Assembly (NCBI RefSeq): GCF_000007185.1
Contig: NC_003551.1
Span: 1,230,001 to 1,262,000, forward strand
Direction: 5' to 3'
DNA length: 32,000 bases
From: Methanopyrus kandleri AV19
GTDB lineage: Archaea; JAADCQ01; Methanopyri; Methanopyrales; Methanopyraceae
Position 1 is the stretch's first letter; every line of letters begins with the position of its first letter. Both the position numbers and the translations under genes were made by a program. The notes under the pieces are model-generated. The model had not been told where the DNA came from. It did no database searches and saw nothing but the letters and a program-made list of their open reading frames with translations. This document shows positions 11,416-31,322 of the stretch, piece after piece.

Positions 11416-11982
11416 TTGCGTGTGATGCTCGACACCAACGTGGTCCTCCGGGCCGTCGAGGAGCTCCTCTCACCCTCGATCCCAGAGGTGACCAGGCCGG
11501 TCCTCATCTCGGAGGGCGGAAGGGGCGTTCGTAGGCGACTCATCGGGCTGAAACCCTCCTCGAGGGAGCAACGTGTGGAATCCCTTTACACGTTCACGTT
11601 CTCCCTGCTCGGATGCCTCGACGTGACCTTGGTGGTGGGTCCCAGGCTCATGAAGGAGTACGAGAAGAACCTGGCAGGGGAGTCCTTCTTCAACCGCTGT
11701 TGGAACCTCCGAGGTGTTCTTCAACTGCTCGAAGAGAAGTGCAAGTGGGTGGACCCGGACGAAGAGCTCGTGGAGTTGTGTCGTAAGGCTCATCCCAAGG
11801 ACGATCCCGCGGACGCCGAGCACGCGGCCGTCTGCCTACAAACTAAAGCGGTGTTGGTCACCCTAGACGTGAGTCATTTTTCACAGATGGCGGAGGAGCT
11901 GAGGAGAGAGGGTTTAGCACTGAAATGGCGGACGCCGTTCGACTTCCTCCAGGAGCTCGGCGTGTTCAAATGTAGAGGTTAA
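11416..11982 (+). CDS. PIN-domain nuclease (VapC-like fold)
   Basis: MLDTNVV at the N-terminus, then internal and C-terminal acidic positions (DPADAEHAAV, LVTLDVSHF), fit the PIN acidic-residue pattern. TTG 11416 is the first start; ATG 11425 (MLDTNVV) is more likely. Confidence 0.75.
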   Translation: MRVMLDTNVVLRAVEELLSPSIPEVTRPVLISEGGRGVRRRLIGLKPSSREQRVESLYTFTFSLLGCLDVTLVVGPRLMKEYEKNLAGESFFNRCWNLRGVLQLLEEKCKWVDPDEELVELCRKAHPKDDPADAEHAAVCLQTKAVLVTLDVSHFSQMAEELRREGLALKWRTPFDFLQELGVFKCRG

Positions 11983-12934
11983 GGTTAGGGGTAACGTCGG
12001 GCATGGTCTGAGGTTCGGGCTCCACCCACCAGAGCATCTCCGGACAACCCTCGCGCAGGTACCACTCTAACCCCGCTCTCAACTCCCGGTACAGGTGCCT
12101 CAGACCCTCGCACTCAGGTAGGTAACCACCGTACTCCTCGTAGAAGTTCCGGTAACTCGAGCGTCGATCGTACACGCGGTCGGATCGGGTGAGGAACTCG
12201 TGGAGTACGCCCGCGTGTACGTTCGCACCGACCACCGCCGCGAACCCCAGCGGCTCGTACTCGAGCAGGGCCACCGGCGCCTTGACGTCCATCACGAGGG
12301 GTACCACGAGCTCCGAGCATTCCCTCAGCCTCTCGAGGCCGGCGGTCGTCATGTTCGCGCTCGTGATCGCCATCACGTTGTCCGTGTAACAGACCTCGAA
12401 ATGGACGCCTTTCTTCTCGAACTTCTCCCGACCGACGACCCGCACCTCGAACCCGGCCTCGACCCAGGACTCGATCACCTCCTCGCTCGGGTGAACCCTA
12501 CCCTCGTACTCCACCTCTTGCACGAGCAGGCGCCGACACTCCGCCCGGATCTCCTCCGGATCCACGCCCAGCTCCTCCATCACCTCCTCGAACTCATCCA
12601 GCCCGTACGAGGTGATGAAGAGTACCGAGGCGTCCGGGTCCGTGAACACCTTCCGCAGGGTCTCGAGACCGGCCTTCCCGCACGCTCCTCCGACCTTCAC
12701 GGGCACGCCGGGCAGTCTGAGCACCTCGAAACAGGCCTCCAAGAGCTCCCTCTCACCCGCTAACACCTCGAGCTCGAACCGCCTGAACAGGTCCTTGGCT
12801 TCCCCCAACACCAGCTCCACAGAGTTCTTACCCTCGGGGAACCCCTTACCTGAGGCCGGATAGCGCTTCACGAGCCTGAGGACGGCGAGCGTGGTGACGT
12901 CCAACGCGAGACCGTAAAGCGAGGATTTATCCAA
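11966..12934 (-). CDS. PLD/HKD-like domain protein with variant motif (H-x-E)
   Basis: 322-aa ORF with a TTG start and a GGGGG stretch 8 nt upstream. It has a single HKD-like motif, GVHFEVCYTDNVMAITSANMTTAGLE, with Glu where the Lys is expected. Its 3' end overlaps the PIN gene by 17 bp (convergent). Confidence 0.55.
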   Translation of the reverse strand: MDKSSLYGLALDVTTLAVLRLVKRYPASGKGFPEGKNSVELVLGEAKDLFRRFELEVLAGERELLEACFEVLRLPGVPVKVGGACGKAGLETLRKVFTDPDASVLFITSYGLDEFEEVMEELGVDPEEIRAECRRLLVQEVEYEGRVHPSEEVIESWVEAGFEVRVVGREKFEKKGVHFEVCYTDNVMAITSANMTTAGLERLRECSELVVPLVMDVKAPVALLEYEPLGFAAVVGANVHAGVLHEFLTRSDRVYDRRSSYRNFYEEYGGYLPECEGLRHLYRELRAGLEWYLREGCPEMLWWVEPEPQTMPDVTPNLNLYI

Positions 12935-14602: not shown

Positions 14603-15679
14603 GTGAAGTGCTCGGGGGACGGGGGCGTGCTCCTTCGTCCCGCGGATTCGTGGGCGGGCGTGCTGGTGGATACGGGGAGCACGATCGTCGCCGTGGACGC
14701 GGGCCCCAACCCGTGGCACGCGGAGGACACCGACTACCTCCTTCTCACCCACGCCCACCTCGATCACGTGGCCTCCCTGGACAGGTACTCGAGGAACGGT
14801 GCGAAAGTACTGTGCCCGGGTGACGTGCGCGACGACTTGGGGCTCGTGGACAGCGCGGTGGGCGTGAAGAAGGTGAAGTCGATGCTCTACGACGTGATCG
14901 TCCACCCCATCCCCGTAGAACACACGTGCAGCGCGTACGCCTACGTCCTGGACTTGGAGGAGTGTAACGTCCTGGTCACGGGTGATTGGCACGTGGGACC
15001 GCGCACGATCGATGGTGAGATCAAACCCCTCTGGAAGGCCGTGCGTGAGGTCGTCGGGGGCGAGGGGGTCGACGTGATCGTCTCGGAGGCCACGCGGGCC
15101 CTCGTGGACGCTCCCGAGCTGGGCGGGAACGAGAGGGTTTTCGAGTACGCCCTGTCCCTACACGACCCGCGGGACGTCCTCGCCTTCCTCCAACCCACGG
15201 ACCTCGAGATCATCGACACGGCCTTCCGAGTGGCCTCGGACCTGGGACTCGACGTCGTCGTGGACTCGGAAACCGATCGGAAGCTCAAGTTCTTGGAGAG
15301 GCGTGGGGACGTGGAGTGGGAGTACGACGTGGCCGACGAGCCCCTGGTGCGCTCCCTGTACCTGACCGTGAGCTGGGAGAAGGCGAGGGAGTTGGCCGAG
15401 GCGGGGCTCGTGGAGGCCGTCGTGGGTAACTGGGCGACGGTCCACCATCTGAGGCGTCGAGTCGGAGTGAAGTACGCGTACGTGATCCCCAGGTCCGGGC
15501 ACGCGTCCCGACCCGAGATAACCCGACTGATCACCGAGCTGGAACCCTCGTGCCTCGTGTTCAGACACCGGTCCGGGGACGCCACCCGCCTCGAACGGTA
15601 CTACTCCAGGTTCGTGGACGAGGTGAGGGTGTGGGTGGGGAGAGGGTGCAGGGACGAGTCCCTCGAGCTCCCGCCCTGA
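14603..15679 (+). CDS. Metallo-beta-lactamase fold nuclease, beta-CASP-like
   Basis: MBL motifs are present: VLVDTGS, LLLTHAHLDHVAS (HxHxDH), PVEHTCSAYAY, VLVTGDW. Beta-CASP-like motifs are VIVSEATRA and the C-terminal PRSGHASRPEITRLITELEPSCLVFRHRSGD (SGHA ... H). GTG start. Confidence 0.75.
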   Translation: MKCSGDGGVLLRPADSWAGVLVDTGSTIVAVDAGPNPWHAEDTDYLLLTHAHLDHVASLDRYSRNGAKVLCPGDVRDDLGLVDSAVGVKKVKSMLYDVIVHPIPVEHTCSAYAYVLDLEECNVLVTGDWHVGPRTIDGEIKPLWKAVREVVGGEGVDVIVSEATRALVDAPELGGNERVFEYALSLHDPRDVLAFLQPTDLEIIDTAFRVASDLGLDVVVDSETDRKLKFLERRGDVEWEYDVADEPLVRSLYLTVSWEKARELAEAGLVEAVVGNWATVHHLRRRVGVKYAYVIPRSGHASRPEITRLITELEPSCLVFRHRSGDATRLERYYSRFVDEVRVWVGRGCRDESLELPP

Positions 15680-15680
15680 C

Positions 15681-18527
15681 TCATCCGCCCAGCAACCTCC
15701 GCCTCTGCTTCACCTCCCTCATCTTCTTCAGGACGAGGGCGGCGTACTTCAGCTCCGGGTAACGCTCGTCGAGTTCTCCCTCGTCCTCGACCTCCTCGAG
15801 CCTGTACTCCCTGAGCCTGGCCAGGGCCCGGGCGATGGGTTCGAACAGCTCCTCGTGCTCGAAGGCCACCTCTAGGGCGGTCCTCATGTCGAGTTCGTCT
15901 CCCTCGCGCGTGAGCGCGGTGAGTACCGCGTGGAGCGCGTCCACCTGGTTGTTCACGCGGCCCGGTTTCCTGGACTCGAAGTCGTCCAGGATGGCGACGG
16001 TCCCCCTGTCCCTGGTCGACGATACCCTGACTAGCTTGCCCTTGGCGTCGGGTCGCCTCCGGTACTCGTACTTGTTCAGCGGGAAGTCCGTGGCGTGGGC
16101 GAGCATGAGCACGTCCTCGTAGTCGGGAGCCTCGCTGGGCTCCTTCGGGTACCCCCAGAAGAACCGGTACAGGAAGTAGAACCTACCCGCCTCGTCGAGG
16201 TCCTCGAAGCCGGGGGTCTCGCCGATCGTCTCCTCGAACTGGTCGGCGATGGCCTCGGGCACGGCCCGGTAAGCCTCCTCCATGACCTCCTCGGGCGAGA
16301 CCTCGACCTCCTCGTCGCCCCTCGACCTGAGGACCTTATCGTACCGCGTGTACGGGCGTAGGGCGGCGCCGCGGGCCACGACCAGGCGCTCGGCGTCGGA
16401 GAACACGAGGTCGGCGGCCCTCCTGAACGCCTCCCGAACGTTCCGGCGGACCTCGTCCCTCACGCGACGCCACGTGGTCACCTCGCTCCCCGAGCGCGGG
16501 CGGCACGCGATGATCTGGGTCGTGCCCACGGCCGCCTTCCAACGCTGGTGGAGCGAGTGTTCAGACTCCGTTCTCACTGGCCATACTTCCGTGATCTCGA
16601 ACCCCGCGTCCCGCAGGGCTCGGACCAGCGAGGTCCAGGCCTCCGTGGCCTTGTGCGTGAACATTAGGGTTAATCGTCCGTGCTCGGGGAGGACTTCCCT
16701 GCAGGCTTCGAGGAATTCTCGAAGTCCTCGCTCGTACTCCCGCTCGGGGTCGTCGTGCCGGGTTCTGTTGGCGACGATCTCCTCGTCCTTGGGCGTCAGC
16801 TCGTTCGAAAACGCGCGTTGGAACTCCATGGCACTCTCCGGCGAGGATCTCGATATGGTGACGAGGAACGTCGGGTGTCCGAACAGGCGTTTCAACCATA
16901 CGTAGAAGAAGTCGGCGAGTTCCGCGTACTGAACGTTGTCGTAGTAAGGTGGGTCGACGACGATCGCGTCGACGCTTTCCACGCCTAGGTTCCTTAGGTG
17001 CTGAGGTAGGGCTCTAGCGTCTCCTAGGATCACCTCAACATCTCCATCAACGCCTGACAGTGCTTGAGAGATCTGTCTGAACGCTTTGAGTACATTCGGT
17101 GCGGCCCAGTACCAGCCACCGTCCTCCGCGAGCACGTTCATCTCGCCGTAGTCCCAAGCCCACGAGTACGCGTGCTGGTCGAAGATGCCTTTGACAACTC
17201 CGCGAGTGTACTCCCATCGCGAGCAGATCGTGTTGTAGTTGATCATCTTGTCGAAGGCTATCATCGCGTAGACGGTGAGCGGCTCGCGGTACTCGTCGTC
17301 TAAACCCCCGCTCAACTCCCGGATCACGCGGAGTAACTCCGCGTGCACGAGCAACTGTCTCTCGTTGAACAGCTTGTAGAAGCTGTCGATCCCGCGAAGC
17401 CTGGGCTCCCTAGTCTTCTCACCCTCCGGAATTTCCTCGGTCGGGATGAGGTCCTCGGCGACCAGCTCGTCCCACCGCTCGAACAACTCCTCCCGCGCCC
17501 GCTCGAAGAACTCCAGATCCCGATCGGTGGCGGCGCGGTACTCCTTCCCCCTACCCGAGCCCTCCACGATCGCGGCCAGGTAGGCGCGGACGAACCCGTG
17601 CTCGTCCTCGAAGTGCCTGCGGGAAAGCCGGTGCACTTGTTCCCGTTGGATCGTCGTTCCGCACCGCGGGCAGGTCACCGCCCCTCGACTAACGGTACCC
17701 CGGCCCGGGTCGAACCCATCTTCCCGAGCTTCGGAGTACCTAACTACGTCGAACCCGACTTCGTTACCCTCACCCTCTTCGGGCACGTCCGGTAAGATGA
17801 CCAGCGACTCCTCCGGCTTACCCCGCTTCCTCAACAACCACCAGTTCGGGCGGGTAGGTACCTTCAACCCGCACCTCGGGCACTCGATCCACTTGATCCA
17901 AACGTAGGCGCGATCGTTATCACCGTAGAACTCGCCCACGCGCTGCTCGAGCTCTTTGCGGATCTCCGCGAAGAACCCGCGCATCTTCTCGAGGAGTTCG
18001 CCCCCGTACTCGACCGGGTACTCGAGCGTGGCCTTGAGCACGAGCCACGCGACCGGGTTCAGCTCGCCTGCGACCACCCGACAACCGAGCCTCAACGCCT
18101 CGAACGGGATCGACCCACCACCCGCCATCGGATCCACGACCAACGGTCTCTCGGAACCCGTGGCCTCTCGGTACATACGTCGAAGGGTCACGCCGTGACC
18201 CTCATCTCGAGCATCACCCGGAATGAACTGTCGCAGATCCGCGCCCTTGCTCGACGTGTCGGCGTGGGAACCCGTCACGGGAGTGTACTTCCAGGAGGCC
18301 TGATCCTCCCCAACGTGAAGGATCTCTAGGAGTTCATCCTCATCGGCATCAACTGGGACCAAGGTGGTGAGCACGGCAGCCCTGGACGCTGACAGCGGCC
18401 GCCTCGCCCACCACACGTGAATGTACTGCAGTGGTGGTCTACCCGTGATCGGCATCTCCCTAGCCACCTCGTCCGTAACGTCCCTGGCGGGGAACCGTTC
18501 GTCGATCTTCCTGTCCCGAGTGGGCAC
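15681..18527 (-). CDS. DNA methyltransferase with N-terminal DUF1156-type domain and Zn-ribbon (COG1743-like, N6-A/N4-C class)
   Basis: 948 aa, GTG start. N-terminus ...PLQYIHVWWARRPLSASRAAVL; SAM motif VVDPMAGGGSIPFEALRLG; catalytic motif AIVVDPPYYDNVQY; two zinc knuckles (ECPRCGLKVP and TCPRCGTTIQ). Confidence 0.9.
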   Translation of the reverse strand: MPTRDRKIDERFPARDVTDEVAREMPITGRPPLQYIHVWWARRPLSASRAAVLTTLVPVDADEDELLEILHVGEDQASWKYTPVTGSHADTSSKGADLRQFIPGDARDEGHGVTLRRMYREATGSERPLVVDPMAGGGSIPFEALRLGCRVVAGELNPVAWLVLKATLEYPVEYGGELLEKMRGFFAEIRKELEQRVGEFYGDNDRAYVWIKWIECPRCGLKVPTRPNWWLLRKRGKPEESLVILPDVPEEGEGNEVGFDVVRYSEAREDGFDPGRGTVSRGAVTCPRCGTTIQREQVHRLSRRHFEDEHGFVRAYLAAIVEGSGRGKEYRAATDRDLEFFERAREELFERWDELVAEDLIPTEEIPEGEKTREPRLRGIDSFYKLFNERQLLVHAELLRVIRELSGGLDDEYREPLTVYAMIAFDKMINYNTICSRWEYTRGVVKGIFDQHAYSWAWDYGEMNVLAEDGGWYWAAPNVLKAFRQISQALSGVDGDVEVILGDARALPQHLRNLGVESVDAIVVDPPYYDNVQYAELADFFYVWLKRLFGHPTFLVTISRSSPESAMEFQRAFSNELTPKDEEIVANRTRHDDPEREYERGLREFLEACREVLPEHGRLTLMFTHKATEAWTSLVRALRDAGFEITEVWPVRTESEHSLHQRWKAAVGTTQIIACRPRSGSEVTTWRRVRDEVRRNVREAFRRAADLVFSDAERLVVARGAALRPYTRYDKVLRSRGDEEVEVSPEEVMEEAYRAVPEAIADQFEETIGETPGFEDLDEAGRFYFLYRFFWGYPKEPSEAPDYEDVLMLAHATDFPLNKYEYRRRPDAKGKLVRVSSTRDRGTVAILDDFESRKPGRVNNQVDALHAVLTALTREGDELDMRTALEVAFEHEELFEPIARALARLREYRLEEVEDEGELDERYPELKYAALVLKKMREVKQRRRLLGG

Positions 18528-18592
18528 GCGCCCTCCCCTCCGACTCCCTTTTTACGTAGCGTCCAATCCACAACTTACCTCGGGGTTAAGTC
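18528..18592. promoter_or_regulatory. 65-bp divergent promoter region between the methyltransferase and the DUF499 ATPase
   Basis: The two genes start back-to-back (GTG 18527 on the minus strand, TTG 18593 on the plus strand). The spacer contains the only A/T-rich stretch available for TATA function (CCCTTTTTACGTAGC). Confidence 0.5.
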
Positions 18593-20761
18593 TTGAGCGG
18601 CGGGGACCTCCCCTCGGTCTTCGACGTCTTCGAGCCGACGGAGCACGCGATCAACAGGAACAAGAACGTCCTGAGCGTGGAACTATCACACGTGGAACGG
18701 GAGGGTACCCCCGAGTCCGACCCCGAGAAGTTCCTGGCGCTGACCGTCCCGACCGAGGGGCTAGTGAACACCGTCGTGAGCGCGTTGAAACGCGTGGCCG
18801 GACTGGAAGGAGGCGAGCCCGTCCAGTACATGACGGAACGCTACGGCGGCGGCAAAACCCACGTCCTCGTCACCCTCTACCACCTGGCGACGAGCGAGAG
18901 GGCTAGGGAACTCCTCCTGGAGAGGGCCCGAGGTTACGTGGACGAGCGGCGACTGGAGGAGTTGGAGGAAGTCCTGTCGGCCCTCGAGGGGAAGGACGTG
19001 CGGGTCGTCGTGTTGGACGGCGATTCCGTGAGCGAGCCCAGGTGGTGGGTGGAACTGGCCGAACGGGTCGACCCGGAGCTCGCGGAGGAGTGGCGTTCTC
19101 GGGACATGACCCCCTCGAAGGGCGACGTCGAGGAGCTCCTGGATCGCGCGCTGGACGGGGTGGACGGCGTTCTCCTGTTGTTGGACGAGGTGACTGGAAT
19201 GTTGATCCGGTCGGGCGAGGAGATGGACCGTGGTCTCGAGTTCTTGAAGATCCTGGCGAGGGTGGTGGGTAAGGCGGACGCTCCCGTGGCGATGGTGGTC
19301 TCGGCGCCGAAGGGTAGTGGCGAGGTACAGCGGCAGTTGGAACGGTTGAAGGAGGAGGGCGAGGTCGAGTCCGAGGCGGTGTTGCGCGAGGAGGTGCACG
19401 ACGTCGGGGAGGAGGCGGTCGAGCAGCTGGACCGCGTGGGAGAGGAGAGGATCCCCGTGAGCGACGTGGAAGAGGCCGCGGAGATCGCCAAGGTATGGCT
19501 CCTACGCCCGAGGGAGGACGTCGACGTGGAGGAGGCGCGGGAAGCGGTCGTCGAGGCGTACGAGGAGTTGACCTCCGAGCTCGCGGGCACGGAAGGCATC
19601 CCGCGAGACGAAGCGGCGAACGCGGTGAGGCGGTTGCGCGAGACGTACCCGTTCCACCCCAGGCTCTTGGAAGTCCTGAGGAGCGTCACGAGGGAGGAGC
19701 CCTACCAGCTGACGCGTAGCTACCTGGAGATCCTCATGCAGGTCGTCGGGTACGCGTTCGATAGGTGGAAGGAGGGCGAGTGGGAGGCTCCGGTGTTCGA
19801 CCTCGGGGACGTGTTCCTGGACGAGACGGAGGTCGAGGAGGCCGTGGTGAAGCCCGAGGGTTGGGAGGAGCCGGCGGGCGACCTCAGGGAGAAGCTGGAC
19901 GACCTGGTGGAGAAGGAGGGCGAGTTGGCGCGCCGCCTCGCGTACGCCCTGTTCGTGCGCAGTCTCGTCCCGGACTCCAGGAAGAGAGGTGCGACGCCGA
20001 AGGACCTCCTGTTGGACGTGGCCAGGCCCGGGGAGGGCGTGGAACTGTCCGACGTGGAGAGGGCGCTCGAACCCATGGAGGACACGCTCTTCTACCTGCA
20101 CAGGGAGGGGGAGCGGTACTACTTCGACAGGACCATGAACGTCTCTTCCGTGATCCAGTCCTACATGCCGAGGGAGGAGCGGGTCGGTTGGAACCGGGCC
20201 AGGGAGGAACTGGAGAGGGAGCTGAGGAGTATCGGGGGCCTGGGACGGGACGCGCTGGTCCTGTGGGAGGACGAGGAGGAACTGTTGAACAAGCTTCGAG
20301 AACCCAAGCCACGCGTCGTCGTACTACCACCGTGGGAGGGTGAGGAGCGGGCCGAGGAGCTCTGGGAGAAGGCCGAGATGGAGAACGCCCCAGTCTTCCT
20401 GGTCTTCCAGGACAAAGGGCGCGAGAGGCGGCTCCTGAACGCCGCCCTGAGGTTATCGGCCGTCGAGAGGGCGCTGAGGTCCGACGACAAGCTCGCCCGG
20501 GAGCACGGGAAGGAGCTCAGGAGGAAGGAGGAGGAGTACCGGAACAGGGTGCGGAAGCTCCTCCGCGAGGGTTACACGATCCTGCGGTACCCTTCCGAGG
20601 GCGGGTTGGCGAGGGAGATGTTCAGTGTCGAGGAGGGGAGGAGTCTGGGGAGTGCTCTCGGGGAGAAGTTGGAGGAGATCGGGTTCCTCGAGCCGGGTGA
20701 AGAACCCGGGGATGTTCGTGTCGGAGGGGTTGGTGGAGAAGCGCGTGGAGATGATGCCTAA
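18593..20761 (+). CDS. P-loop ATPase of the DUF499 (BrxC/PglY-like) family, N-terminal two thirds
   Basis: 722 aa. DPEKFLALTVPTEGL, then Walker A MTERYGGGKTHVLVTLYHLA, Walker B GVLLLLDEV, and ETYPFHPRLLEVL, which I recognise as typical of DUF499-type ATPases. Divergent from the methyltransferase. Confidence 0.8.
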   Translation: MSGGDLPSVFDVFEPTEHAINRNKNVLSVELSHVEREGTPESDPEKFLALTVPTEGLVNTVVSALKRVAGLEGGEPVQYMTERYGGGKTHVLVTLYHLATSERARELLLERARGYVDERRLEELEEVLSALEGKDVRVVVLDGDSVSEPRWWVELAERVDPELAEEWRSRDMTPSKGDVEELLDRALDGVDGVLLLLDEVTGMLIRSGEEMDRGLEFLKILARVVGKADAPVAMVVSAPKGSGEVQRQLERLKEEGEVESEAVLREEVHDVGEEAVEQLDRVGEERIPVSDVEEAAEIAKVWLLRPREDVDVEEAREAVVEAYEELTSELAGTEGIPRDEAANAVRRLRETYPFHPRLLEVLRSVTREEPYQLTRSYLEILMQVVGYAFDRWKEGEWEAPVFDLGDVFLDETEVEEAVVKPEGWEEPAGDLREKLDDLVEKEGELARRLAYALFVRSLVPDSRKRGATPKDLLLDVARPGEGVELSDVERALEPMEDTLFYLHREGERYYFDRTMNVSSVIQSYMPREERVGWNRAREELERELRSIGGLGRDALVLWEDEEELLNKLREPKPRVVVLPPWEGEERAEELWEKAEMENAPVFLVFQDKGRERRLLNAALRLSAVERALRSDDKLAREHGKELRRKEEEYRNRVRKLLREGYTILRYPSEGGLAREMFSVEEGRSLGSALGEKLEEIGFLEPGEEPGDVRVGGVGGEARGDDA

Positions 20762-22061
20762 GGAGGTCCTGAAGAACGCGTACTCCAAGCCCGGGTGCCC
20801 GTGGTGTCGGGAAGAGGACGTGATCGCGATGATCGTCAAGGGGTGCGAGGAGGGCTTCTTCGTGGTGGACACGGGTAAGGCACGGTTCTTCCTGAGGCGA
20901 CCGAAGGGCGTGGACTCCAAGGCGAGGTTCGGGCATCCGACGGTACTGCACCCTCCGGTGGGATGGACGGCGGACTTCATGGGGGCTGACGAGACCGTCA
21001 AGGACTTCCTGGACGACGTGATGAAAAGGTTGGAGGAACCGAGGAACACGAACTGGAGCGAGGAGGAGAGGTGGCTCTCGGACGACGAACTGCTCGAGTT
21101 GGTGAGAGAGGACCTCCCTCAGGGGTTGGATAGGGCCGGGTTGGTGCTCCGGCATCAGGACGAGGGAGGGATCGTCGGGCCCGGGGATCTGGAGGAGGAC
21201 AAGGATCTCCTGGAGGCCGTCCTGGAGGAGCCGAACGCTTGGGTCTTCGAGGAGTTGAAGGTGACGAGGCTGGTGTCGGACGAGGTGCGTCGGGAGGGTA
21301 GTATCGCGAGGAGGGAACTGGTCCGGCGGTTGTCGCAGAGGTTCGGGCTGGAGGAGAGTCGGGTGAACGGTGCCATCAGCCGGTTGGTGCAAGACGGTGA
21401 GTTGGAGGAGGACGGTGGGATCGTGAGCGTGCCGTCCGAGGCGGAGGTGACTGTGGACGACGTCGTGGGCGTTGTGGAGAAGAAGGGTGAGGCCACGCTG
21501 GACGTGCTCGCGAGCAGGCTCGGGGTTAACCCGGCGTTCGTGGAGCCCGCGGTCGTGGAGGGTGTGAAACGCGGTCGCCTGGTCGTGTACCGCGGTGATC
21601 GACCGTTACGGGACCTGGAGTCGGTGAGTGAGGGTGTGCGGGTCGGACTGCCGGAGGAGCGGGTCGAGGTCGGGTACGCGGGAGATCCGGTGGATTTCGC
21701 GAGGGAGGTCGCGGACGCGGTGTTGATCGTGGGAGGGCGTGCTCGGGTGCAGCTCGAACTGGAGAGTGTGAAGGGCCTGGACTACGTCGATACCGAGTAC
21801 CTGGCCAGGTTTGAGGAGGTCCGGGTGAGGATCGAGGTGGAGGGTGGCGTGCTGGAAGGTGAGAAGAAGGGGGTCAGTCCGCGGAACGACGGGTGGTGGA
21901 TCGCGGTCAGGCTGGCCGCGGGCCAAGCGAGCGGCGCGGAACTCCACCTCACCGGCCGATTCGACCGGGACTCACTGACCGACTTCGAAGAATCCGTCAG
22001 AGAGCTCGCGGATGCCCTGGACCCTGAAGAAGCGCATGCCGTAGTGGAGAAGGTCGATTGA
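20712..22061 (+). CDS. C-terminal module of the DUF499 ATPase as a separate or overlapping ORF (wHTH-like repeats); start ambiguous
   Basis: In-frame ATGs lie at 20712 (MFVSEGLVEK), 20751 and 20754 (MMPKEVLKN), all overlapping the end of the upstream ORF (stop 20759-20761). The translation is protein-like with two wHTH-looking segments (IARRELVRRLSQRFGLEESRVNGAISRLVQDGELEE; ATLDVLASRLGVNPAFVEPAVVEGVKRGRLVVY). Confidence 0.7.
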   Translation: MFVSEGLVEKRVEMMPKEVLKNAYSKPGCPWCREEDVIAMIVKGCEEGFFVVDTGKARFFLRRPKGVDSKARFGHPTVLHPPVGWTADFMGADETVKDFLDDVMKRLEEPRNTNWSEEERWLSDDELLELVREDLPQGLDRAGLVLRHQDEGGIVGPGDLEEDKDLLEAVLEEPNAWVFEELKVTRLVSDEVRREGSIARRELVRRLSQRFGLEESRVNGAISRLVQDGELEEDGGIVSVPSEAEVTVDDVVGVVEKKGEATLDVLASRLGVNPAFVEPAVVEGVKRGRLVVYRGDRPLRDLESVSEGVRVGLPEERVEVGYAGDPVDFAREVADAVLIVGGRARVQLELESVKGLDYVDTEYLARFEEVRVRIEVEGGVLEGEKKGVSPRNDGWWIAVRLAAGQASGAELHLTGRFDRDSLTDFEESVRELADALDPEEAHAVVEKVD

Positions 22062-22504
22062 GACGGTGAGCGAGGACTACGGGTCGGAACTACCATCCTC
22101 TTCGTCACCATCTCTACTTATCCTGAAGCTTACGGATTCCCTGACCGATTAATCCAAGTGCTAGACCTTCTAGTTAACCACTCTCAAGCCTTTATTCATA
22201 AGTATAAGTATATGAACTATCTCTGTCATTTTGATTCAAGTCAGAACAAGCGGTAATAGAGTTATCTTCCCCACATTCACTTCAGTTTTCTCACCTAAGT
22301 TCAACATCTTCATGTAGGTGATCAATATCTCCTTAACTGTTACAACTTCGCCATTTAGGGTTAACATAAAGCTTCTTTCGTACCTACTTAGCCAACATTA
22401 TTTCTTAGAAATAGGCAGAATATGGAAGGTTCAAAATATAACAGTTTCATACCATTAATCTTTATATATGACACATATGATACTCTTAGATGGGGTGAAT
22501 ATCC

Positions 22505-22828
22505 ATGTTCATTCTCGAATTTGGGGTTGAATATAGCTTAGGATCACCGACTATTCGATATGTATGCAGAGTCTACTACTCACCAACATTCAGCATCCAA
22601 CCTACATTCCAATTCGCGACAGAGTACTTTAGTAATACTTCGTTACTGCACCTTTTACTGACTATAGAAACTATCTCAAAACTTAGCAGTATCGAAAGTA
22701 AACTATACCACATCGAAAGTAAACTAAGCTTCCGGAATACTTTACTACAGAATGTAATCTCGAACTGGCTTTCACCGATACTGCCACCAATTCCCGAAGT
22801 GATCAAGATACTACTAGGTAGTTGGTGA
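22505..22828 (+). CDS. Questionable 107-aa hydrophobic ORF inside the AT-rich spacer
   Basis: A 107-codon open frame in ~30-35% G+C DNA is unlikely by chance. However, the antisense frame (22576-22854) is also open, and the ORF contains the 15-bp direct repeats (IESKL x2). No RBS or family recognised. Confidence 0.3.
   Translation: MFILEFGVEYSLGSPTIRYVCRVYYSPTFSIQPTFQFATEYFSNTSLLHLLLTIETISKLSSIESKLYHIESKLSFRNTLLQNVISNWLSPILPPIPEVIKILLGSW
22691..22726. repeat. Two perfect 15-bp direct repeats, 21-bp period
   Basis: ATCGAAAGTAAACTA occurs at 22691-22705 and again at 22712-22726. Confidence 0.9.
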
Positions 22829-23094
22829 TCACACGGTGTCAAACTTCCATCCACTACCGTCTTTTATGAGTCCAGGGACGTAGTCCCACCCGGACTAGTT
22901 TTTCACTCACTTCCCTCTTTCTCCTCACCTCACGGTCCGATATCTCAGGTGCTAGCGGTAGGGAGTGGAGAAATTGAACATCAGCTTCCGGCCCATGTTG
23001 GGCAGTTCCGGCTGTAAGATTTCCGTCCGATTAGTACGTAGAACACGTTCGAATACGTTCCACTTAGGATAGACACAACGCCCTCAATGGATGG

Positions 23095-23589
23095 GTGGAG
23101 TTTGGCATCAAGGTAACTACGCCGCCCGTCCCACCCCCGGAGTCCGACGGGAGGGCCGAGACCCTCGAGGAGGGTAACTGGTCGTACGAGACGCGCACGT
23201 ACTACGTCCGCCTCCGGGACGACCGACTGGGAACCGAGGTGGGGAAGGGCTCCGCCGAGTACGCCGTGCACGCGCTCACCCACGCCCTCAGGGTCACCGA
23301 GGGTTACCCGCCCGCCCACGTCCGGCACGCCGTCGACGAGGAATCGATCTTCCTCTACGAGCTACCGGCGGCTGTCCTCCCCCACCTGGACTGGGAGTCC
23401 GCGGTCCGGGAGGCCGAGCGCACGCGCCTGGAGCCCGAGCGGCTCCGGCTCCCGACCTGTCCGTGGCCGAGGGGCTCACCGAGGGTCTCCCGACCCCTCG
23501 TCCGCCGCTACCTTCGGCGGTTGCTAGACCTCCTAAAGCGACTCTCCCTGCACGTGCATGGCGCGGTTACCGAACCCTCAAAGCACTAA
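23095..23589 (+). CDS. Hypothetical protein
   Basis: 164-aa ORF, GTG start. Protein-like N-terminal two thirds (NWSYETRTYYVRLRDDRLGTEVGKGSAEYAVHALTHALRVTEGYPPAHVRHAVDEESIFLYELP). The tail is basic. It is the first GC-rich gene after the AT-rich spacer. Confidence 0.5.
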   Translation: MEFGIKVTTPPVPPPESDGRAETLEEGNWSYETRTYYVRLRDDRLGTEVGKGSAEYAVHALTHALRVTEGYPPAHVRHAVDEESIFLYELPAAVLPHLDWESAVREAERTRLEPERLRLPTCPWPRGSPRVSRPLVRRYLRRLLDLLKRLSLHVHGAVTEPSKH

Positions 23590-23701
23590 CAGCCAACACA
23601 ACAGACCTAAGCTATTGCTAAACCACCAAACTATCCCACTAAGTTGCGCCCGTGTGATAATTCATCAGATTTGACAACCTAAAGGAAATTCTCGAAATTT
23701 C

Positions 23702-23731
23702 TAGCAACCCTACCGAAAGTTGCTAATATAT
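23702..23731 (+). promoter_or_regulatory. Palindromic operator overlapping the BRE/TATA of the wHTH gene
   Basis: Perfect inverted repeat TAGCAAC (23702-23708) / GTTGCTA (23719-23725) with a 10-nt spacer. The right arm runs into TAATATAT (23724-23731), about 30 nt before ATG 23762. Related half-sites are ATTGCTAAA (23614-23622) and AAGTTGCGCC (23641-23650). Confidence 0.55.
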
Positions 23732-23761
23732 CTCCCTCCTTTAGTAGGAAGAGGGCTGAGA

Positions 23762-24154
23762 ATGCTCGAGGAACGCGAGCTTGAGGAGCTTGCTAAAGCT
23801 CTGAAACGGGGAGAACTGGACAAAACCGGCGCCGTGCTCGGCTTGCTCTATCTAGCGTACGTTGAGACAGGCGGACATGGAGGCATGACAGCTGACGATG
23901 TAGTACGAGTTTTACAGGAATCAGGATACGACATAACTAAAGAGAGATTCTACTCGCTCGCCTCCCAGTTGATGAAGAAAGGCTACATAGAATCTCACAA
24001 AATCAATGGACGTAGGGTTATCTACACGATCAACAGCGACAGTGAGTACGAGGTGGAACAGAAACTACGCGAGAGACTCGAGAAATCCGCCCCGACGGCT
24101 GAGCGTGTAAGCGCAGAGGAGATGCGGAGAATACTGGATAGGCACTCGACTTGA
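23762..24154 (+). CDS. Small winged-helix DNA-binding protein (PadR/MarR-like fold)
   Basis: 130 aa from ATG 23762; the track start TTG 23720 lies inside the TATA box and is unlikely. MTADDVVRVLQESGYDITKERFYSLASQLMKKGYIESHKINGRRVIYTI gives a helix-turn-helix plus beta-wing pattern. Confidence 0.7.
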   Translation: MLEERELEELAKALKRGELDKTGAVLGLLYLAYVETGGHGGMTADDVVRVLQESGYDITKERFYSLASQLMKKGYIESHKINGRRVIYTINSDSEYEVEQKLRERLEKSAPTAERVSAEEMRRILDRHST

Positions 24155-24243
24155 GGGAAAGCGCGGCCCCGTGTGGGACGGTGGTTTAATTTTCTCGGCC
24201 CTCATGGTACCAATTAGGAGAAGTTGTTGGGGATTGTCTTGTT

Positions 24244-25155
24244 TTGGCTAAGGTCAGTAAGGTGTTCGTGGTCGGGTTCACGGCCAGGAAGGGAGGTACC
24301 GGGAAGACGACCTGCTCGTTCAACGTAGGGTTCGAGTTCGCCAGGAGGAGGAAGTGGAAGGGTGTGAAGAGCCATCCGGTGTTCTTCGTGGACGTCGATC
24401 CGCAGGCGATCGGTAAGGAGTCGGAGCGGGCGGCCACTACGCTTACCGACCTCTTCAGGATCGGGCCTTTCGACCTAACACCCCTCAAACTAGAGGGCGA
24501 CAGGATGGTCGAGGCCAGACGCGTCACGAAGGAGACCGTCGAGAGGACCGGTGGTTTCGAGTTGTTCCACGTGAAATACTCGCCGGATCCCGAGGAGTTC
24601 GACAATGCAGATCCTATGTGCTCGGTTCACGATAAGGTGTTCCTAGCTCACCTCAGCACGCACATCTCGGAGTCGCCGGGTATGATGGATTTCGGGAAGT
24701 TCCTGAACGCCATCACGGGGGCCGGGTTCGACGGTATCGTCGTCCTCGACACCCCTCCGCTGAACGTCAGGACGACCTTCGTCCTCAACGCGCTGGAACA
24801 CTGTGATTTAGTGGTTCCAGTCCTGAACCCGGAGTCCTACGATCAGATCCCCGACTTCATCAGGCGACACCCTGTGCGGTTCATCGTGCTCAACCAGATG
24901 CTGAAGGGTAGGACGAAGGAGGCGGAGAAGATCCGCAGGGAGATCGAGGGTTACCTCAAGAGGACGACGTTGGACGAGGACGACGTCATCTGGATCCCTA
25001 GCAACGACCAGCTCCGCTCGTGCACGAACACCGGGGTTCCGGCTAGGTGTAGGAACCCCAAGCCCCAGGCCGTCACGCCCAAGTTCCATCACATAGCCTG
25101 GAGGATTGAAGTGGAGCGGGAGCGGCGGAGCAAGATCAGCGAGATCAGGCTCTGA
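24244..25155 (+). CDS. ParA/MinD/Soj-family P-loop ATPase
   Basis: Deviant Walker A FTARKGGTGKTTCSF, DVDPQ, Walker B GIVVLDTPP. TTG 24244 or GTG 24262 is the start. Confidence 0.9.
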   Translation: MAKVSKVFVVGFTARKGGTGKTTCSFNVGFEFARRRKWKGVKSHPVFFVDVDPQAIGKESERAATTLTDLFRIGPFDLTPLKLEGDRMVEARRVTKETVERTGGFELFHVKYSPDPEEFDNADPMCSVHDKVFLAHLSTHISESPGMMDFGKFLNAITGAGFDGIVVLDTPPLNVRTTFVLNALEHCDLVVPVLNPESYDQIPDFIRRHPVRFIVLNQMLKGRTKEAEKIRREIEGYLKRTTLDEDDVIWIPSNDQLRSCTNTGVPARCRNPKPQAVTPKFHHIAWRIEVERERRSKISEIRL

Positions 25156-25169
25156 GCGGGGGAGCGCCG

Positions 25170-25841
25170 GTGTTCGAGCTGGCCGTCAAGGCCTTCGGTC
25201 TCCCGGATTCGACCGTGACCCACGCCAAGCGCGGCCTCCAGATCATGGACGACCGGGCTTCGAGGGGCCGGAAGCCGGTCACGAGGGGCGACTACGGTAA
25301 GGTGACGAGGGGGGTCGCCAGGCTCGTCAGGCACGCCCACACGACGCTGGTGGTACCGGGTCTCGACGTCGTCACGAAGTGGGCTAAGCGCTACGGGAAA
25401 AGGCCCTGGAAGATCGTCCGTAACGTCCTCGAGGACGGTGGCGGGCTCCTCGACGAGACCCCCCTGAGGTTCGAGGACCTGCCGCCGGGCGCCGCCCCGA
25501 TCGCGGCCGTGGTCAGGACGGGGAACGCCCGGAAGGTCGTCGAGGAGGCGTTCCTGACGGAATACCCGCTGTTCGCGGCGATGATGTGCGCGGTGCTCGA
25601 GGACGCGGCTCGGACAATGCTCGAGCGGTTCTCGGAGGAGGAGGTCGAGACTTACGGGGAGTTCTGTCGGAAGCACCCGGGGAGGCACGGTTCCAGCTTC
25701 CTGATCGGGGTAGCCCTCTGGGGCTGGCTCGAGGAGAGGACGGGGGAGACTATCGACGTCGACGAGACCCTCAGGAGCATCGAGAAACTCGCCAGGGACC
25801 CGGTGGAGGAGGCCGTGAACGGGATCCTAGACGTCGGCTGA
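25170..25841 (+). CDS. Hypothetical protein downstream of ParA (candidate partition adaptor)
   Basis: 223-aa ORF. GTG start 14 nt after the ParA stop, preceded by GGGGGAG. The translation is protein-like (VVTKWAKRYGKRPWKIVRNVLEDGGGLLDETPLRFEDL; FLIGVALWGWLEERTGETIDVDETLRSIEKLARDPVEEAV). No family recognised. Confidence 0.65.
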   Translation: MFELAVKAFGLPDSTVTHAKRGLQIMDDRASRGRKPVTRGDYGKVTRGVARLVRHAHTTLVVPGLDVVTKWAKRYGKRPWKIVRNVLEDGGGLLDETPLRFEDLPPGAAPIAAVVRTGNARKVVEEAFLTEYPLFAAMMCAVLEDAARTMLERFSEEEVETYGEFCRKHPGRHGSSFLIGVALWGWLEERTGETIDVDETLRSIEKLARDPVEEAVNGILDVG

Positions 25842-25897
25842 TACCCGCCGAGGCAGTGACTAGAGGATCTCTCGGAGAGTTTAACGGACTGGGGGCG

Positions 25898-27057: not shown

Positions 27058-27182
27058 ACCCAGTCCTACCCCCTATCGCTCGATGACTCCTAGGATCTCT
27101 CCCAGCGATCCTGTCGGAAAAAGGTCCCCGCTAGAACCGCGCCCGAACTCCCCGACGGCCGCGCATGCCTTAGTGGGTACCC

Positions 27183-28277: not shown

Positions 28278-28421
28278 TTTAGGACAGATGTTATCTCATC
28301 AGGAGGTTCCGTGTCGCCAGGGGGCGTTCCAGTGCCCGAGCGCGTCCCATTGAGCCCGACCGAAGAGTTCTATGACAGGGTGAAATCGTACGTGGAACGC
28401 CGAATGTCGGACCTCGGCTTA
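28273..28421 (+). repeat. Duplicated leader plus 5' coding block of paralog 2 (copy 1 of 2)
   Basis: 149 bp collinear and ungapped with 29781-29929: GTTAATTTAG...CAGGAGGTTCCGT...CAGGGGGCGTTCCAGTGCC.GAG.GCGTCCC..TGAGCCCGACCGA...ATGTCGGACCTCGGCTTA. It includes a TATA-like TTAATTTA and AGGAGGT. Confidence 0.85.
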
Positions 28422-29615: not shown

Positions 29616-29780
29616 GTGGTCATTCTTTGCCTTCTCAATGATTAAGTGTCCTCGTACCGTTCTCTACCGATCGCCGATACTCCGAAATCCCTACTCTACC
29701 GTCAGGAAAGCCCTCCGAACGGACGTTCCATCGACTAAAAGGAGTATCTCAACTGTGTGAAGCACTGTAAGGTTGGTTAA

Positions 29781-29929
29781 GTTAATTTAGAGCGGACGTT
29801 GTCTCACCAGGAGGTTCCGTACCGTCAGGGGGCGTTCCAGTGCCTGAGTGCGTCCCGCTGAGCCCGACCGATAGGTTCTACGACAAGGTGAAATCCTACG
29901 TGAGACACCGGATGTCGGACCTCGGCTTA
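29781..29929 (+). repeat. Duplicated leader plus 5' coding block of paralog 3 (copy 2 of 2)
   Basis: See 28273-28421. Same length and block order, offset 1508 bp. Confidence 0.85.
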
Positions 29930-31165: not shown

Positions 31166-31322
31166 GTGAAGTCGCCCTTACATTCCTCGATAATCCCTAT
31201 ATCACCGCAACTCCCGACCGTTGGGTCCGGCGGATTATCTGGCGCTCAGCGTCCAGCAACAACAGCACTGCCCTCGGCGTCGTAGGGTGAGGAGGCTCCG
31301 CACGTTTCCGCAGACCCGACTG

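What the first reader, a model, noticed from the sequence alone, without database searches (positions are those of the whole stretch)
14603..22061. Methylase + DUF499 ATPase module without PglZ, helicase or REase, abutted by a beta-CASP nuclease: candidate minimal BREX-like defence system
Seen in the sequence:
- A 948-aa Zn-ribbon methyltransferase (HVWWARRP N-domain, DPMAGGGSIP, DPPY, two CPRCG knuckles) is transcribed divergently, across a 65-bp spacer, from a P-loop ATPase (YGGGKTH, LLLLDEV, YPFHPRLLEVL).
- The ATPase is followed by an overlapping ORF with two wHTH-like segments.
- The methylase stop (15681) is 1 bp from the stop of a convergent metallo-beta-lactamase/beta-CASP nuclease (15679).

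Known background: DUF499-type ATPases are the BrxC/PglY component of BREX. COG1743/DUF1156 methylases have been noted next to DUF499 ATPases in defence-island surveys, usually with additional helicase or other partners.

Here no PglZ, Lon-like BrxL, SF2 helicase or recognisable restriction endonuclease is present anywhere in the 32 kb. My inference is a stripped-down archaeal variant. The beta-CASP nuclease and/or the nearby PIN/PLD proteins might supply the effector, or the system may be purely epigenetic.
Basis: partly seen in the sequence, partly recalled or inferred. Interest (0 to 1): 0.75.

Follow-up and report, generated by a model that had tools for sequence, protein, structure and literature searches.

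The report
Helicase-less Hma/BREX-related module, Methanopyrus
This is a divergent Methanopyrus kandleri copy of the known DUF499-ATPase plus DUF1156-methylase defence family (Hma, or "BREX-related"): its usual helicase has decayed, a small beta-CASP nuclease is conserved next to the methylase, and the "extra ORF" is the ATPase's own C-terminal half, split off by a one-base difference in the reference sequence.

Summary
The sequence features are real and sit at the stated coordinates. The window is Methanopyrus kandleri AV19.

- **Family.** The methylase is a DUF1156/HmaB-type N6 methyltransferase. The ATPase is a DUF499/HmaC-type ORC/Cdc6-like AAA+ protein. This places the pair in the known Hma / "DUF499-centred BREX-related" (BR) family, not BREX proper.
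- **The overlapping wHTH ORF is not a separate gene.** An extra C at 20693 splits one 1155-aa DUF499 gene. Three independent assemblies that are 99.97% identical to the window lack that C, and four close relatives are intact.
- **The helicase was lost, not primitively absent.** ORF 23095-23589 matches the C-terminus of a DEAD/Lhr-like helicase that follows DUF499 in a sister locus (L003). Of 45 complete comparator loci carrying both the methylase and DUF499, all 45 have a Snf2 helicase; this window has none.
- **The MBL link.** A compact beta-CASP-like MBL gene lies tail-to-tail with the methylase in all four divergent Methanopyri locus types. It is absent from 80 other methylase loci. More distant members of the MBL family are not methylase-linked.

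Best reading: this is a Methanopyri-specific variant of a known RM-like system. The ATPase probably loads the methylase, and the MBL is the probable effector, though that is unproven. Interest is moderate.

The parts
14627..15679 (+). Compact (350-358 aa) beta-CASP-like metallo-beta-lactamase nuclease (AAM02471 / WP_148679755). It is convergent with the methylase, and their stop codons are 1 bp apart. The longest ORF starts at 14603.
   Evidence: Pfam Lactamase_B scores 28 bits, above its gathering cut-off. The orthologs in L003 and L004 also hit Pfam RMMBL (24.2 and 21.5 bits against a cut-off of 21.6). A profile of five orthologs hits RNase J (3e-7), Integrator-11, CPSF73 and SNM1A in the PDB. 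HxHxDH, H107, D128, E162, H187, SGH300A and H322 are invariant. Synteny with the methylase is conserved in L003, L004 and L087.
15681..18527 (-). DUF1156 / HmaB-type N6-adenine-type DNA methyltransferase, 948 aa (AAM02472), with one 4-Cys Zn ribbon inserted in the methyltransferase fold. The gene is intact.
   Evidence: Pfam DUF1156 3.2e-11. PADLOC HmaB 2.6e-55. NCBIfam DUF1156_antiphage 2.6e-62, but 211 bits against a cut-off of 1000. It is 100% identical to the M. kandleri protein P0121. Catalytic and Zn motifs are invariant. dN/dS for the N-terminal 475 codons against L087 is 0.12.
18528..18592 (.). 65-bp divergent intergenic spacer between the methylase and the ATPase. It is presumed to be a bidirectional promoter region.
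   Evidence: Read directly from the sequence. Promoter function was not tested.
18593..22061 (+). One DUF499 / HmaC-type ORC/Cdc6-like AAA+ ATPase gene, 1155 aa once the extra C is removed. In this window it is split into 18593-20761 (722 aa, AAM02473 / WP_011019628) and 20712-22061 (449 aa, WP_158295969).
   Evidence: P0001 (1159 aa, 97% identical) covers both ORFs. L088, L089 and L090 are 99.97% identical to the window and encode an uninterrupted 1155-aa protein. Intact versions of 1154-1159 aa are also seen in P0245, P0248 and P0249. Family scores: Pfam DUF499 2.4e-12 and PADLOC HmaC 5.3e-28. The AF2 model has pLDDT 78 and is confident across the junction. Its top Foldseek hit is the BrxC N-terminal region, then ORC/Cdc6. 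dN/dS is 0.16-0.21 for the N-terminal part and 0.23-0.31 for the C-terminal part.
20692..20693 (+). Single extra C (GAGCCGGG here, GAGCGGG elsewhere) that causes the apparent frameshift. It is most likely an error in the reference sequence or a variant in the laboratory stock.
   Evidence: The C is absent from L001, L002, L088, L089 and L090. The only other differences from L088-L090 across 14.8 kb are three synonymous substitutions.
22062..23094 (.). AT-rich (about 42% GC), ORF-poor DNA occupying the position where a sister locus has the helicase's 5' 1.5 kb.
   Evidence: Composition profile and sequence. No Rfam or tRNA hit. Homology with L001 and with L002/L087 ends at the DUF499 stop codon.
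23095..23589 (+). Relic of a DEAD/Lhr-like (BrxHI-like) helicase. This 164-aa ORF (WP_148679757) is homologous only to C-terminal residues 499-619 of the 653-aa L003 helicase.
   Evidence: tblastn gives 43% identity, E 3e-19. blastp gives 40% over 121 aa, E 2e-24. The L003 helicase has DEAD and Helicase_C domains, and its best PADLOC match is BrxHI at 1.3e-34. No other part of the helicase is detectable between 21900 and 24300.

Best explanation
The block 14.6-23.6 kb of M. kandleri AV19 is a lineage-specific variant of the Hma / DUF499-centred BREX-related (BR) family. This family is RM-like and is the one that includes MANTIS.

**Shown**
- An intact DUF1156 N6 methyltransferase is transcribed divergently from a single 1155-aa DUF499 AAA+ ATPase. 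The split into two ORFs is a one-base artefact or variant of this reference sequence.
- A compact beta-CASP-like MBL nuclease is conserved tail-to-tail with the methylase in Methanopyri.
- The SF2 helicase that accompanies every complete comparator locus is missing here. What remains is a C-terminal relic of a DEAD/Lhr-like helicase. An intact copy of that helicase follows DUF499 in the sister locus L003.

**Inferred mechanism**
- By analogy with MANTIS, where the DUF499 ATPase must load and activate the methylase, the ATPase uses ATP to load the methylase on an asymmetric site. The methylase marks host DNA.
- Unmethylated incoming DNA bound by the same complex would be handed to a nuclease.
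- In this clade the usual Snf2 helicase-nuclease fusion has been replaced by separate proteins: the beta-CASP nuclease and, optionally, the Lhr-like helicase.
- In AV19 the helicase is gone. The locus therefore works either as a three-gene system (methylase, loader, nuclease) or as a methylation module with a weakened restriction arm.
For: **Family placement**
- PADLOC: HmaB 2.6e-55, HmaC 5.3e-28.
- Pfam: DUF1156 and DUF499 both above their gathering cut-offs.
- The AF2 model of the ATPase best matches BrxC and then ORC/Cdc6.

**Single ATPase gene**
-.

**Selection on helicase-less lineages**
- dN/dS is 0.16-0.31 for DUF499 among three helicase-less lineages, at dS up to 0.44.
- dN/dS is 0.12 for the methylase N-terminal part.

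**MBL linkage**
- The MBL is tail-to-tail with the methylase in the window, L003, L004 and L087. MBL identity across these is only 28-34% (56% between L003 and L004), and the outer flanks differ.
- The MBL and the methylase body travel together when the DUF499 module is swapped, as seen comparing L087 with L003.

**Helicase**
- Intact in L003, directly after DUF499.
- Relic in AV19.
- Of 45 comparator loci with full flanks that contain DUF499, all 45 carry a Snf2 helicase of HmaA or PLD-helicase type.

**Mechanism template**
- MANTIS preprint 10.64898/2026.09.23.753747.
- BR-system survey PMC12839542.
Against: - No experiment or methylome is available for M. kandleri.
- All MBL-linked loci come from one narrow taxon (Methanopyri), so shared descent could explain part of the synteny.
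- More distant members of the compact MBL family are not next to a methylase: L106 and L107 sit among ORFans, and L109 is next to an RNA ligase.
- The MBL has the His-type motif C (SGHA) and an RMMBL signature, which are typical of RNA-acting beta-CASP enzymes. NCBI names one copy 'ribonuclease J'.
- The MBL structure prediction failed (pLDDT 39).
- The helicase may be encoded elsewhere in the genome, which could not be searched.
- Both core proteins score far below the NCBIfam equivalog cut-offs (211 against 1000, and 90 against 1200).
Confidence: 0.6

Rival explanations
1. Methylation-only module. After the helicase (the restriction arm) was lost, the methylase and its DUF499 loader persist as an orphan epigenetic pair. 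They might protect against other nucleases or have a regulatory role. The neighbouring MBL would then be a housekeeping or RNA-processing beta-CASP enzyme whose adjacency reflects descent, not function.
For: - In MANTIS, methylation needs the DUF499 ATPase. That requirement would keep DUF499 under selection even without restriction.
- The helicase has decayed repeatedly: the relic in AV19, and a second decayed copy in L003 and L087.
- The MBL has RNA-type beta-CASP features and is annotated as RNase J.
- Distant MBL relatives are not methylase-linked.
Against: - The MBL-methylase junction (overlapping or 1-bp-spaced stop codons) is kept across four locus types, while everything outside the three genes changes.
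- The MBL evolves fast (28-34% identity within one genus-level group). That is typical of defence genes rather than housekeeping RNases.
- None of the other 80 methylase loci has this MBL, so it is not a generic neighbour.
Confidence: 0.25
2. One reading: a primary, stripped-down BREX-like design that never used a helicase, PglZ or restriction endonuclease.
For: No intact helicase, PglZ or BrxL gene is present in 32 kb. Three Methanopyrus lineages lack an adjacent helicase, yet DUF499 remains under purifying selection.
Against: - A helicase relic lies 1.1 kb downstream.
- An intact homologous helicase overlaps the DUF499 stop codon in L003.
- DNA after the DUF499 stop differs in each lineage, which indicates replacement.
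- None of 45 complete comparator loci lacks a helicase.
- The ATPase is HmaC-type, not BrxC.
Confidence: 0.05
3. The whole locus is a decaying remnant with no function: a frameshifted ATPase, a lost helicase and an orphan methylase.
For: The reference sequence shows a frameshift. A second lineage (L002) shows an independent 1-nt deletion 42 nt upstream. The helicase is reduced to a relic.
Against: - The frameshift is absent from three near-identical assemblies.
- L002's nearest relative L087 (99.2% identical) is intact.
- dN/dS is well below 1 in both halves.
- The methylase and the MBL have all catalytic motifs.
Confidence: 0.07

Closest known systems
Hma system (HmaA Snf2 helicase-nuclease, HmaB DUF1156 methylase, HmaC DUF499 ATPase), also called Type-1 DUF499-centred BREX-related (BR) system (PMC11232893; PMC12839542)
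   Same: The methylase and the ATPase are the best PADLOC matches (HmaB 2.6e-55, HmaC 5.3e-28). The domain logic is the same: an ORC/Cdc6-like AAA+ protein with wHTH domains and a C-terminal beta-alpha-beta module, plus a DUF1156 N6 methyltransferase with a Zn-finger insert.
   Different: - There is no Snf2 helicase-nuclease (HmaA).
- The genes are divergent rather than co-directional.
- A beta-CASP MBL is attached tail-to-tail to the methylase.
- The helicase seen in the sister locus is DEAD/Lhr-like (BrxHI-like), not Snf2.
- Scores are far below the NCBIfam equivalog cut-offs.
MANTIS (Gao_RL; Type-2 BR system: MtsA DUF499 ATPase, MtsB, MtsC methylase, MtsD PLD-helicase) (bioRxiv 10.64898/2026.09.23.753747)
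   Same: It has the same ATPase + methylase pair. It is also the only member of the family with a worked-out mechanism: ATP-dependent loading of the methylase, hemimethylation of asymmetric sites, and a separate effector.
   Different: No MtsB/DUF3780-type protein and no PLD-helicase MtsD were detected here. The candidate effector has an MBL fold.
BREX, especially Type 3 (BrxC, PglXI, BrxHII) and the Type-2 helicase BrxHI
   Same: The ATPase model superposes best on the BrxC N-terminal region (9zll_B, E 2e-6). The methylase gives a weaker PglXI hit (5.8e-16). The L003 helicase is most similar to BrxHI (1.3e-34).
   Different: No PglZ, BrxA, BrxB, BrxF or BrxL. The BrxC profile scores only 5e-5. 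This is not a BREX system by its defining genes.
Ligase-associated DNA-damage-response pair: Lhr-like DEXH helicase (TIGR04121) and beta-CASP exonuclease (TIGR04122)
   Same: It pairs a compact (about 330 aa) beta-CASP nuclease with an Lhr-like helicase. The MBL orthologs have TIGR04122 as their best or joint-best NCBIfam match. The L003 helicase hits TIGR04121 at 8e-29.
   Different: All scores are far below the family cut-offs, so the similarity is at superfamily level only. There is no ligase or phosphoesterase here. The context is a methylase/ATPase defence module.

Membership tests
Hma / DUF499-centred BR systems | DUF499 ORC/Cdc6-type AAA+ ATPase with Walker A/B, downstream wHTH domains and a C-terminal RRM-like domain | tested here: met
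   Pfam DUF499 scores 45.9 bits against a cut-off of 23. PADLOC HmaC 5.3e-28. GGGKTH and DE are invariant. In the AF2 model, the AAA+ part and a wHTH at 882-945 are confident. [quoted passage not shown] Foldseek top hits are BrxC and ORC/Cdc6.
Hma / DUF499-centred BR systems | DUF1156 N6-adenine methyltransferase with a Zn-finger TRD insert, adjacent to the ATPase | tested here: met
   Pfam DUF1156 scores 43.6 bits against a cut-off of 24. PADLOC HmaB 2.6e-55. DPPY, the GGGS motif and the four Cys are conserved. It is adjacent to the ATPase across a 65-bp spacer.
Hma / DUF499-centred BR systems | Swi2/Snf2 helicase (usually fused to a PD-(D/E)xK or PLD nuclease) in the locus | tested here: not met
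   An HMM built from 40 Snf2 helicases taken from comparator loci finds nothing in the window, L001-L004 or L087. There is no HmaA or PLD_Helicase hit. All 45 comparator loci with full flanks have one.
Type-2 BR (MANTIS) | Small DUF3780/MtsB gene and a PLD-helicase effector | tested here: not met
   No such hit in Pfam or PADLOC scans of window ORFs of 100 aa or more. Smaller ORFs were not scanned exhaustively.
Type-3 BR and BREX | PglZ phosphatase (plus iSTAND/BrxB-like protein) | tested here: not met
   No PglZ or BrxB hit for any window ORF scanned.
BREX | BrxC/PglY-type ATPase (DUF6079 type) and PglX methylase | tested here: not met
   PADLOC BrxC scores 4.9e-5 against HmaC 5.3e-28, and PglXI scores 5.8e-16 against HmaB 2.6e-55. 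The structural similarity to BrxC is at fold level only.
NCBIfam anti-phage-associated DUF1156 / DUF499 equivalogs (NF042963, NF042962) | Score above the curated equivalog cut-off | tested here: not met
   211 bits against a cut-off of 1000, and 90 bits against 1200. The proteins are related to these families but lie outside them.
beta-CASP nucleases | MBL motifs 1-4 (including HxHxDH) plus beta-CASP motifs A (D/E), B (H) and C (H or V) | tested here: inconclusive
   HAHLDH, H107 and D128 are invariant. Candidates for motifs A, B and C are E162, H187 and SGH300A, also invariant. RMMBL passes its cut-off in the L003 ortholog only. PDB profile hits are all beta-CASP proteins, but the best E-value is 3e-7. 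The AF2 model is unusable.
DISARM | DrmA helicase, DrmB (DUF1998) and DrmC (PLD with an HKD motif) | tested here: not met
   The only hit is a weak DrmC match (2.4e-4) for 11966-12934, and that protein has no HxKxxxxD motif.

The most novel reading that the evidence does not exclude
In Methanopyri the DUF499-methylase recognition complex uses a compact beta-CASP metallo-beta-lactamase nuclease as its effector, and this can work without any helicase motor. It would be the first MBL-fold effector, and the first helicase-independent three-gene form, of a BREX-related RM-like system. The co-transfer of the MBL with the methylase body would then reflect a physical methylase-nuclease partnership.
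Probability: 0.3. Interest if true: 0.65.

Novelty: new variant of a known kind. Interest (0 to 1): 0.45.

Why it matters
- **Annotation.** It corrects the public annotation of M. kandleri AV19. WP_011019628 (722 aa) and WP_158295969 (449 aa) are one DUF499 ATPase, and WP_148679757 is a helicase relic.
- **Family diversity.** It shows that the Hma/BR/MANTIS family, so far described with a Snf2 helicase(-nuclease) as an invariable third core gene, has a hyperthermophilic archaeal branch. In that branch the effector side has been rebuilt from a separate beta-CASP nuclease plus an Lhr-like helicase, and the helicase is repeatedly lost while the methylase, ATPase and MBL stay under selection.
- **A natural test case.** If the MBL is the effector, this locus can test which parts of these systems are needed for methylation and which for restriction.
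- **Diversification.** The locus shows extreme allelic mosaicism within one genus-level group: 30% identity between DUF499 alleles that sit beside 96-100% identical MBL and methylase segments. This is a clear example of modular shuffling in an archaeal defence island.

Tried and rejected
1. **Programmed frameshift or phase variation at the ORF2/ORF3 overlap.** Rejected. The extra C is not in a long homopolymer. It is absent from three near-identical assemblies. The second frameshift (L002) is at a different position, and L002's 99.2%-identical relative is intact.
2. **ORF3 as an independent wHTH regulator.** Rejected, because fused homologs exist and the AF2 model is continuous across the junction.
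3. **Widening the MBL family.**
   - The word-indexed homolog search found only two close relatives.
   - The metagenome and viral DNA-pattern scans returned only generic beta-CASP/MBL genes with no methylase nearby.
   - The exhaustive phmmer search found only 12 hits.
4. **AF2 model of the MBL from a 3-sequence alignment.** It failed (pLDDT 39), so no fold search was run on it.
5. **PDB sequence searches** with the DUF499 and methylase profiles found nothing.
6. **Flanking att-like repeats, tRNA or Rfam elements** that would mark a mobile element. None were found.
7. **The PLD-like and PIN genes as the nuclease effector.** The pair is conserved near the system in L004, but the PLD-like protein lacks HKD. 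Left as a side note.
8. **A published M. kandleri DNA methylome.** None was found.
9. **The BR-survey paper's held supplements.** They contain no mention of Methanopyrus or these accessions.
Full report
**Source and observation**

The window is the Methanopyrus kandleri AV19 chromosome. The 948-aa methylase is 100% identical to AAM02472 / WP_011019627, which is carried on a 1,694,969-bp contig (accessions). A Methanopyrus-specific DUF1678 gene lies at 6233-7009.

The divergent spacer is 65 bp. The MBL and methylase stop codons are separated by one base. The quoted motifs are real and conserved: DPMAGGGSIP, DPPY and four cysteines forming one Zn ribbon in the methylase, and GGGKTH, DE and YPFHP in the ATPase.

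**Family placement**

- The methylase passes Pfam DUF1156 (43.6 bits against a cut-off of 24). Its best PADLOC match is HmaB (2.6e-55).
- The ATPase passes Pfam DUF499 (45.9 bits against 23). Its best PADLOC match is HmaC (5.3e-28). BrxC scores only 4.9e-5.
- The NCBIfam 'anti-phage-associated' DUF1156 and DUF499 models match, but far below their equivalog cut-offs.

The literature shows this gene pair is already known. It was first noted beside HEPN and EVE domains (PMC7641849). PADLOC named it Hma, and HmaA was shown to defend against phage T4 (PMC11232893). [quoted passage not shown] All types have an ATPase, a DUF1156 methylase and a Swi2/Snf2 helicase as core (PMC12839542).

A September 2026 preprint on the Type-2 member MANTIS gives a mechanism. 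The DUF499 ATPase, together with MtsB, must load and activate the methylase. The methylase hemimethylates asymmetric 6-bp sites. A helicase-nuclease then restricts unmodified DNA.

**The 'overlapping wHTH ORF' is the ATPase C-terminus**

The ATPase ORF covers only about 580-630 of the roughly 940-1020 profile positions. A 97%-identical metagenomic protein, P0001 (1159 aa), aligns to ORF2 and then, from residue 702, to ORF3 at 96% identity.

A DNA alignment shows the window has one extra C at 20693 (GAGCCGGG here, GAGCGGG in the others). L002 has an independent 1-nt deletion 42 nt upstream.

Three Logan assemblies settle the question: L088 from SRR606249, plus L089 and L090. They are 99.97% identical to window 17226-32000. 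They differ only by the absence of that C and by three synonymous substitutions, and they encode an uninterrupted 1155-aa protein. SRR606249 is the Shakya mock community of cultured strains. That this community contains AV19 is from my own memory, but the near-identity supports it. Intact 1154-1159-aa versions also exist in P0245, P0248 and P0249. L002's 99.2%-identical relative L087 is intact as well.

Further support:
- dN/dS is 0.16-0.21 for the N-terminal part and 0.23-0.31 for the C-terminal part.
- An AF2 model of P0001 built from 60 sequences has pLDDT 78. It is confident and continuous through the junction, has a confident wHTH at 882-945, and ends in a low-confidence beta-alpha-beta-type C-terminal domain.
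- Its best PDB matches are the BrxC N-terminal region (9zll_B, E 2e-6) and ORC/Cdc6.

RefSeq currently annotates the two halves as separate proteins.

**The helicase**

I surveyed 80 loci from GTDB species genomes that contain methylase homologs at 28-36% identity. Fifty have at least 8 kb of flank on both sides. Of these, 45 contain DUF499, and all 45 also contain a Snf2 helicase of HmaA or PLD-helicase type. The window has no Snf2 hit, and no PglZ, BrxL or HmaA hit.

The nearest non-identical loci explain the absence. In L003 (methylase 55% identical), a 653-aa helicase with DEAD and Helicase_C domains starts at the DUF499 stop codon. Its best PADLOC match is BrxHI (1.3e-34), and it hits the NCBIfam Lhr-like model TIGR04121 at 8e-29.

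Window ORF 23095-23589 (164 aa) aligns to residues 499-619 of that helicase at 40-43% identity, with E-values of 2e-24 and 3e-19. No other helicase segment is detectable. The 1.1 kb between it and the DUF499 stop codon is ORF-poor DNA of about 42% GC.

The other type-A DUF499 lineages have different DNA after the stop codon. L001 has a 179-aa gene there, and L002/L087 have an MNT/HEPN pair. L003 and L087 also carry a second helicase copy beside the MBL. It is decayed: residues 100-319 are missing and the reading frames are broken.

So the helicase-less state is secondary and recurrent. It is not a primitive minimal design.

**The MBL gene**

An alignment of five orthologs keeps HxHxDH, H107, D128, E162, H187, SGH300A and H322 invariant. 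The L003 and L004 orthologs hit Pfam RMMBL. A profile of the five hits only beta-CASP proteins at the top of the PDB list: RNase J at 3e-7, then Integrator-11, CPSF73 and SNM1A. The AF2 model was unusable. 'Beta-CASP-like' is therefore well supported but not structurally proven.

The MBL lies tail-to-tail with the methylase in the window (1-bp gap), in L003 and L087 (4-bp overlap), and in L004 (464-bp gap). MBL identity across these is only 28-34% (56% between L003 and L004), and the genes beyond the MBL differ.

The locus is mosaic. L087 shares its MBL (1 codon difference in 329) and most of its methylase with L003. Its methylase N-terminus and its DUF499 match L002 at 99.2% nucleotide identity. 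The L003 DUF499 is only about 30% identical to it.

Limits on the linkage evidence:
- None of the 80 other methylase loci has this MBL.
- An exhaustive phmmer search of 1.84 billion representative proteins found only 12 hits, including about six compact relatives.
- The three distant relatives I could place are not methylase-linked. Two sit among ORFans and one is next to an RNA ligase.

The linkage is thus real but confined to one Methanopyri subclade. The His-type motif C and the RMMBL signature leave open whether the substrate is RNA or DNA.

**Interpretation**

The best reading is a Methanopyri-specific variant of the Hma/BR family. In it, the Snf2 helicase-nuclease has been replaced by a separate beta-CASP nuclease plus an Lhr-like helicase. 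AV19 has lost the helicase.

Purifying selection on DUF499 and the methylase across helicase-less lineages fits the MANTIS finding that methylation itself needs the ATPase. Whether the MBL gives a working restriction arm without a helicase is unknown. The main rival is a methylation-only module with an unrelated MBL neighbour.

It is wrong on three points: this is not a primary minimal system, the ATPase is not BrxC-type, and the wHTH ORF is not a separate component.

**Verdict**

This is a new variant of a known kind, of moderate interest (0.45). The most useful concrete outputs are the annotation correction, the helicase relic, and the MBL-for-Snf2-nuclease swap hypothesis.

Noticed in passing
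window 20693, 21806, 23514, 23517: These are the only four differences between this reference sequence and three independent assemblies (L088-L090) across 14.8 kb. One is an extra C that breaks the DUF499 gene. The other three are synonymous substitutions. All lie in GC-rich contexts, which suggests errors in the original Sanger-era sequence or drift in the laboratory stock.
   Followed up: yes
window 22062-23094: A block of about 42% GC, ORF-poor DNA in a genome of about 65% GC. It sits where the helicase 5' part should be. It has no Rfam or tRNA hit, no flanking repeats, and its origin is unknown. Similar AT-rich stretches occur at about 13.0-14.5 kb and 29-31 kb.
   Followed up: partly
window 11416-11982 (+) and 11966-12934 (-): A PIN-domain gene overlaps a PLD-like gene that gives weak DrmC hits and has no HxKxxxxD motif. 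The same pair (45% and 56% aa identity) lies near the methylase-ATPase-MBL module in L004. It may be an accessory or toxin-antitoxin-like pair of the same island.
   Followed up: partly
window 25586-31165; L004 7626-10023: A family of ORFan paralogs (25586-27532, 28311-29615, 29840-31165, plus 27183-28277), with 151-nt and 243-nt direct repeats between copies. Homologs sit between the MBL and the PLD-like gene in L004, and the 27183-28277 homolog is 80% identical. No Pfam, PADLOC or NCBIfam match.
   Followed up: no
L003 9497-10693; L087 4896-6091: A second, decayed copy of the DEAD/Lhr-like helicase lies divergently beside the MBL gene. Residues 100-319 are deleted and the reading frames are broken. 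Helicase genes around this module decay repeatedly.
   Followed up: partly
L087 vs L003 vs L002 vs window (methylase gene): Recombination breakpoints fall inside the methylase gene, at about codon 130 and about codon 475. Nearly identical MBL and methylase-body segments are therefore combined with DUF499 alleles that are only about 30% identical. The N-terminal 263 aa of L001's methylase are 65% identical to the window's, beside a 97% identical DUF499.
   Followed up: partly
L002 (position equivalent to window 20651): An independent 1-nt deletion lies 42 nt upstream of the AV19 insertion and also splits DUF499, into 701 and 448 aa. The 99.2%-identical L087 is intact. It is either an assembly error or a real polymorphism at the same region of the gene.
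   Followed up: partly
window 7166-10579 (+): A 1137-aa ORF in DNA of about 71% GC, with no hit in Pfam, PADLOC or NCBIfam. Whether it is a real gene was not examined.
   Followed up: no
window 23720-25155 (+): A small wHTH protein (weak MCM_C and Csa3-like hits) followed by a ParA/MinD-like ATPase, immediately after the helicase relic. This could be a partition module of an integrated element.
   Followed up: no
P0262: A 1227-aa protein in the representative library has 12 separate stretches that match residues 284-342 of the MBL (the SGHA C-terminal motif region). This is an odd repeat architecture and was not examined.
   Followed up: no
L109 2295-4538: A distant member of the compact MBL family (P0265) sits directly upstream of an RNA ligase (TIGR01209, 9e-110) in a MAG contig whose FeoB is 58% identical to the window's. 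This hints that the family's ancestral role may be RNA or DNA end processing.
   Followed up: partly
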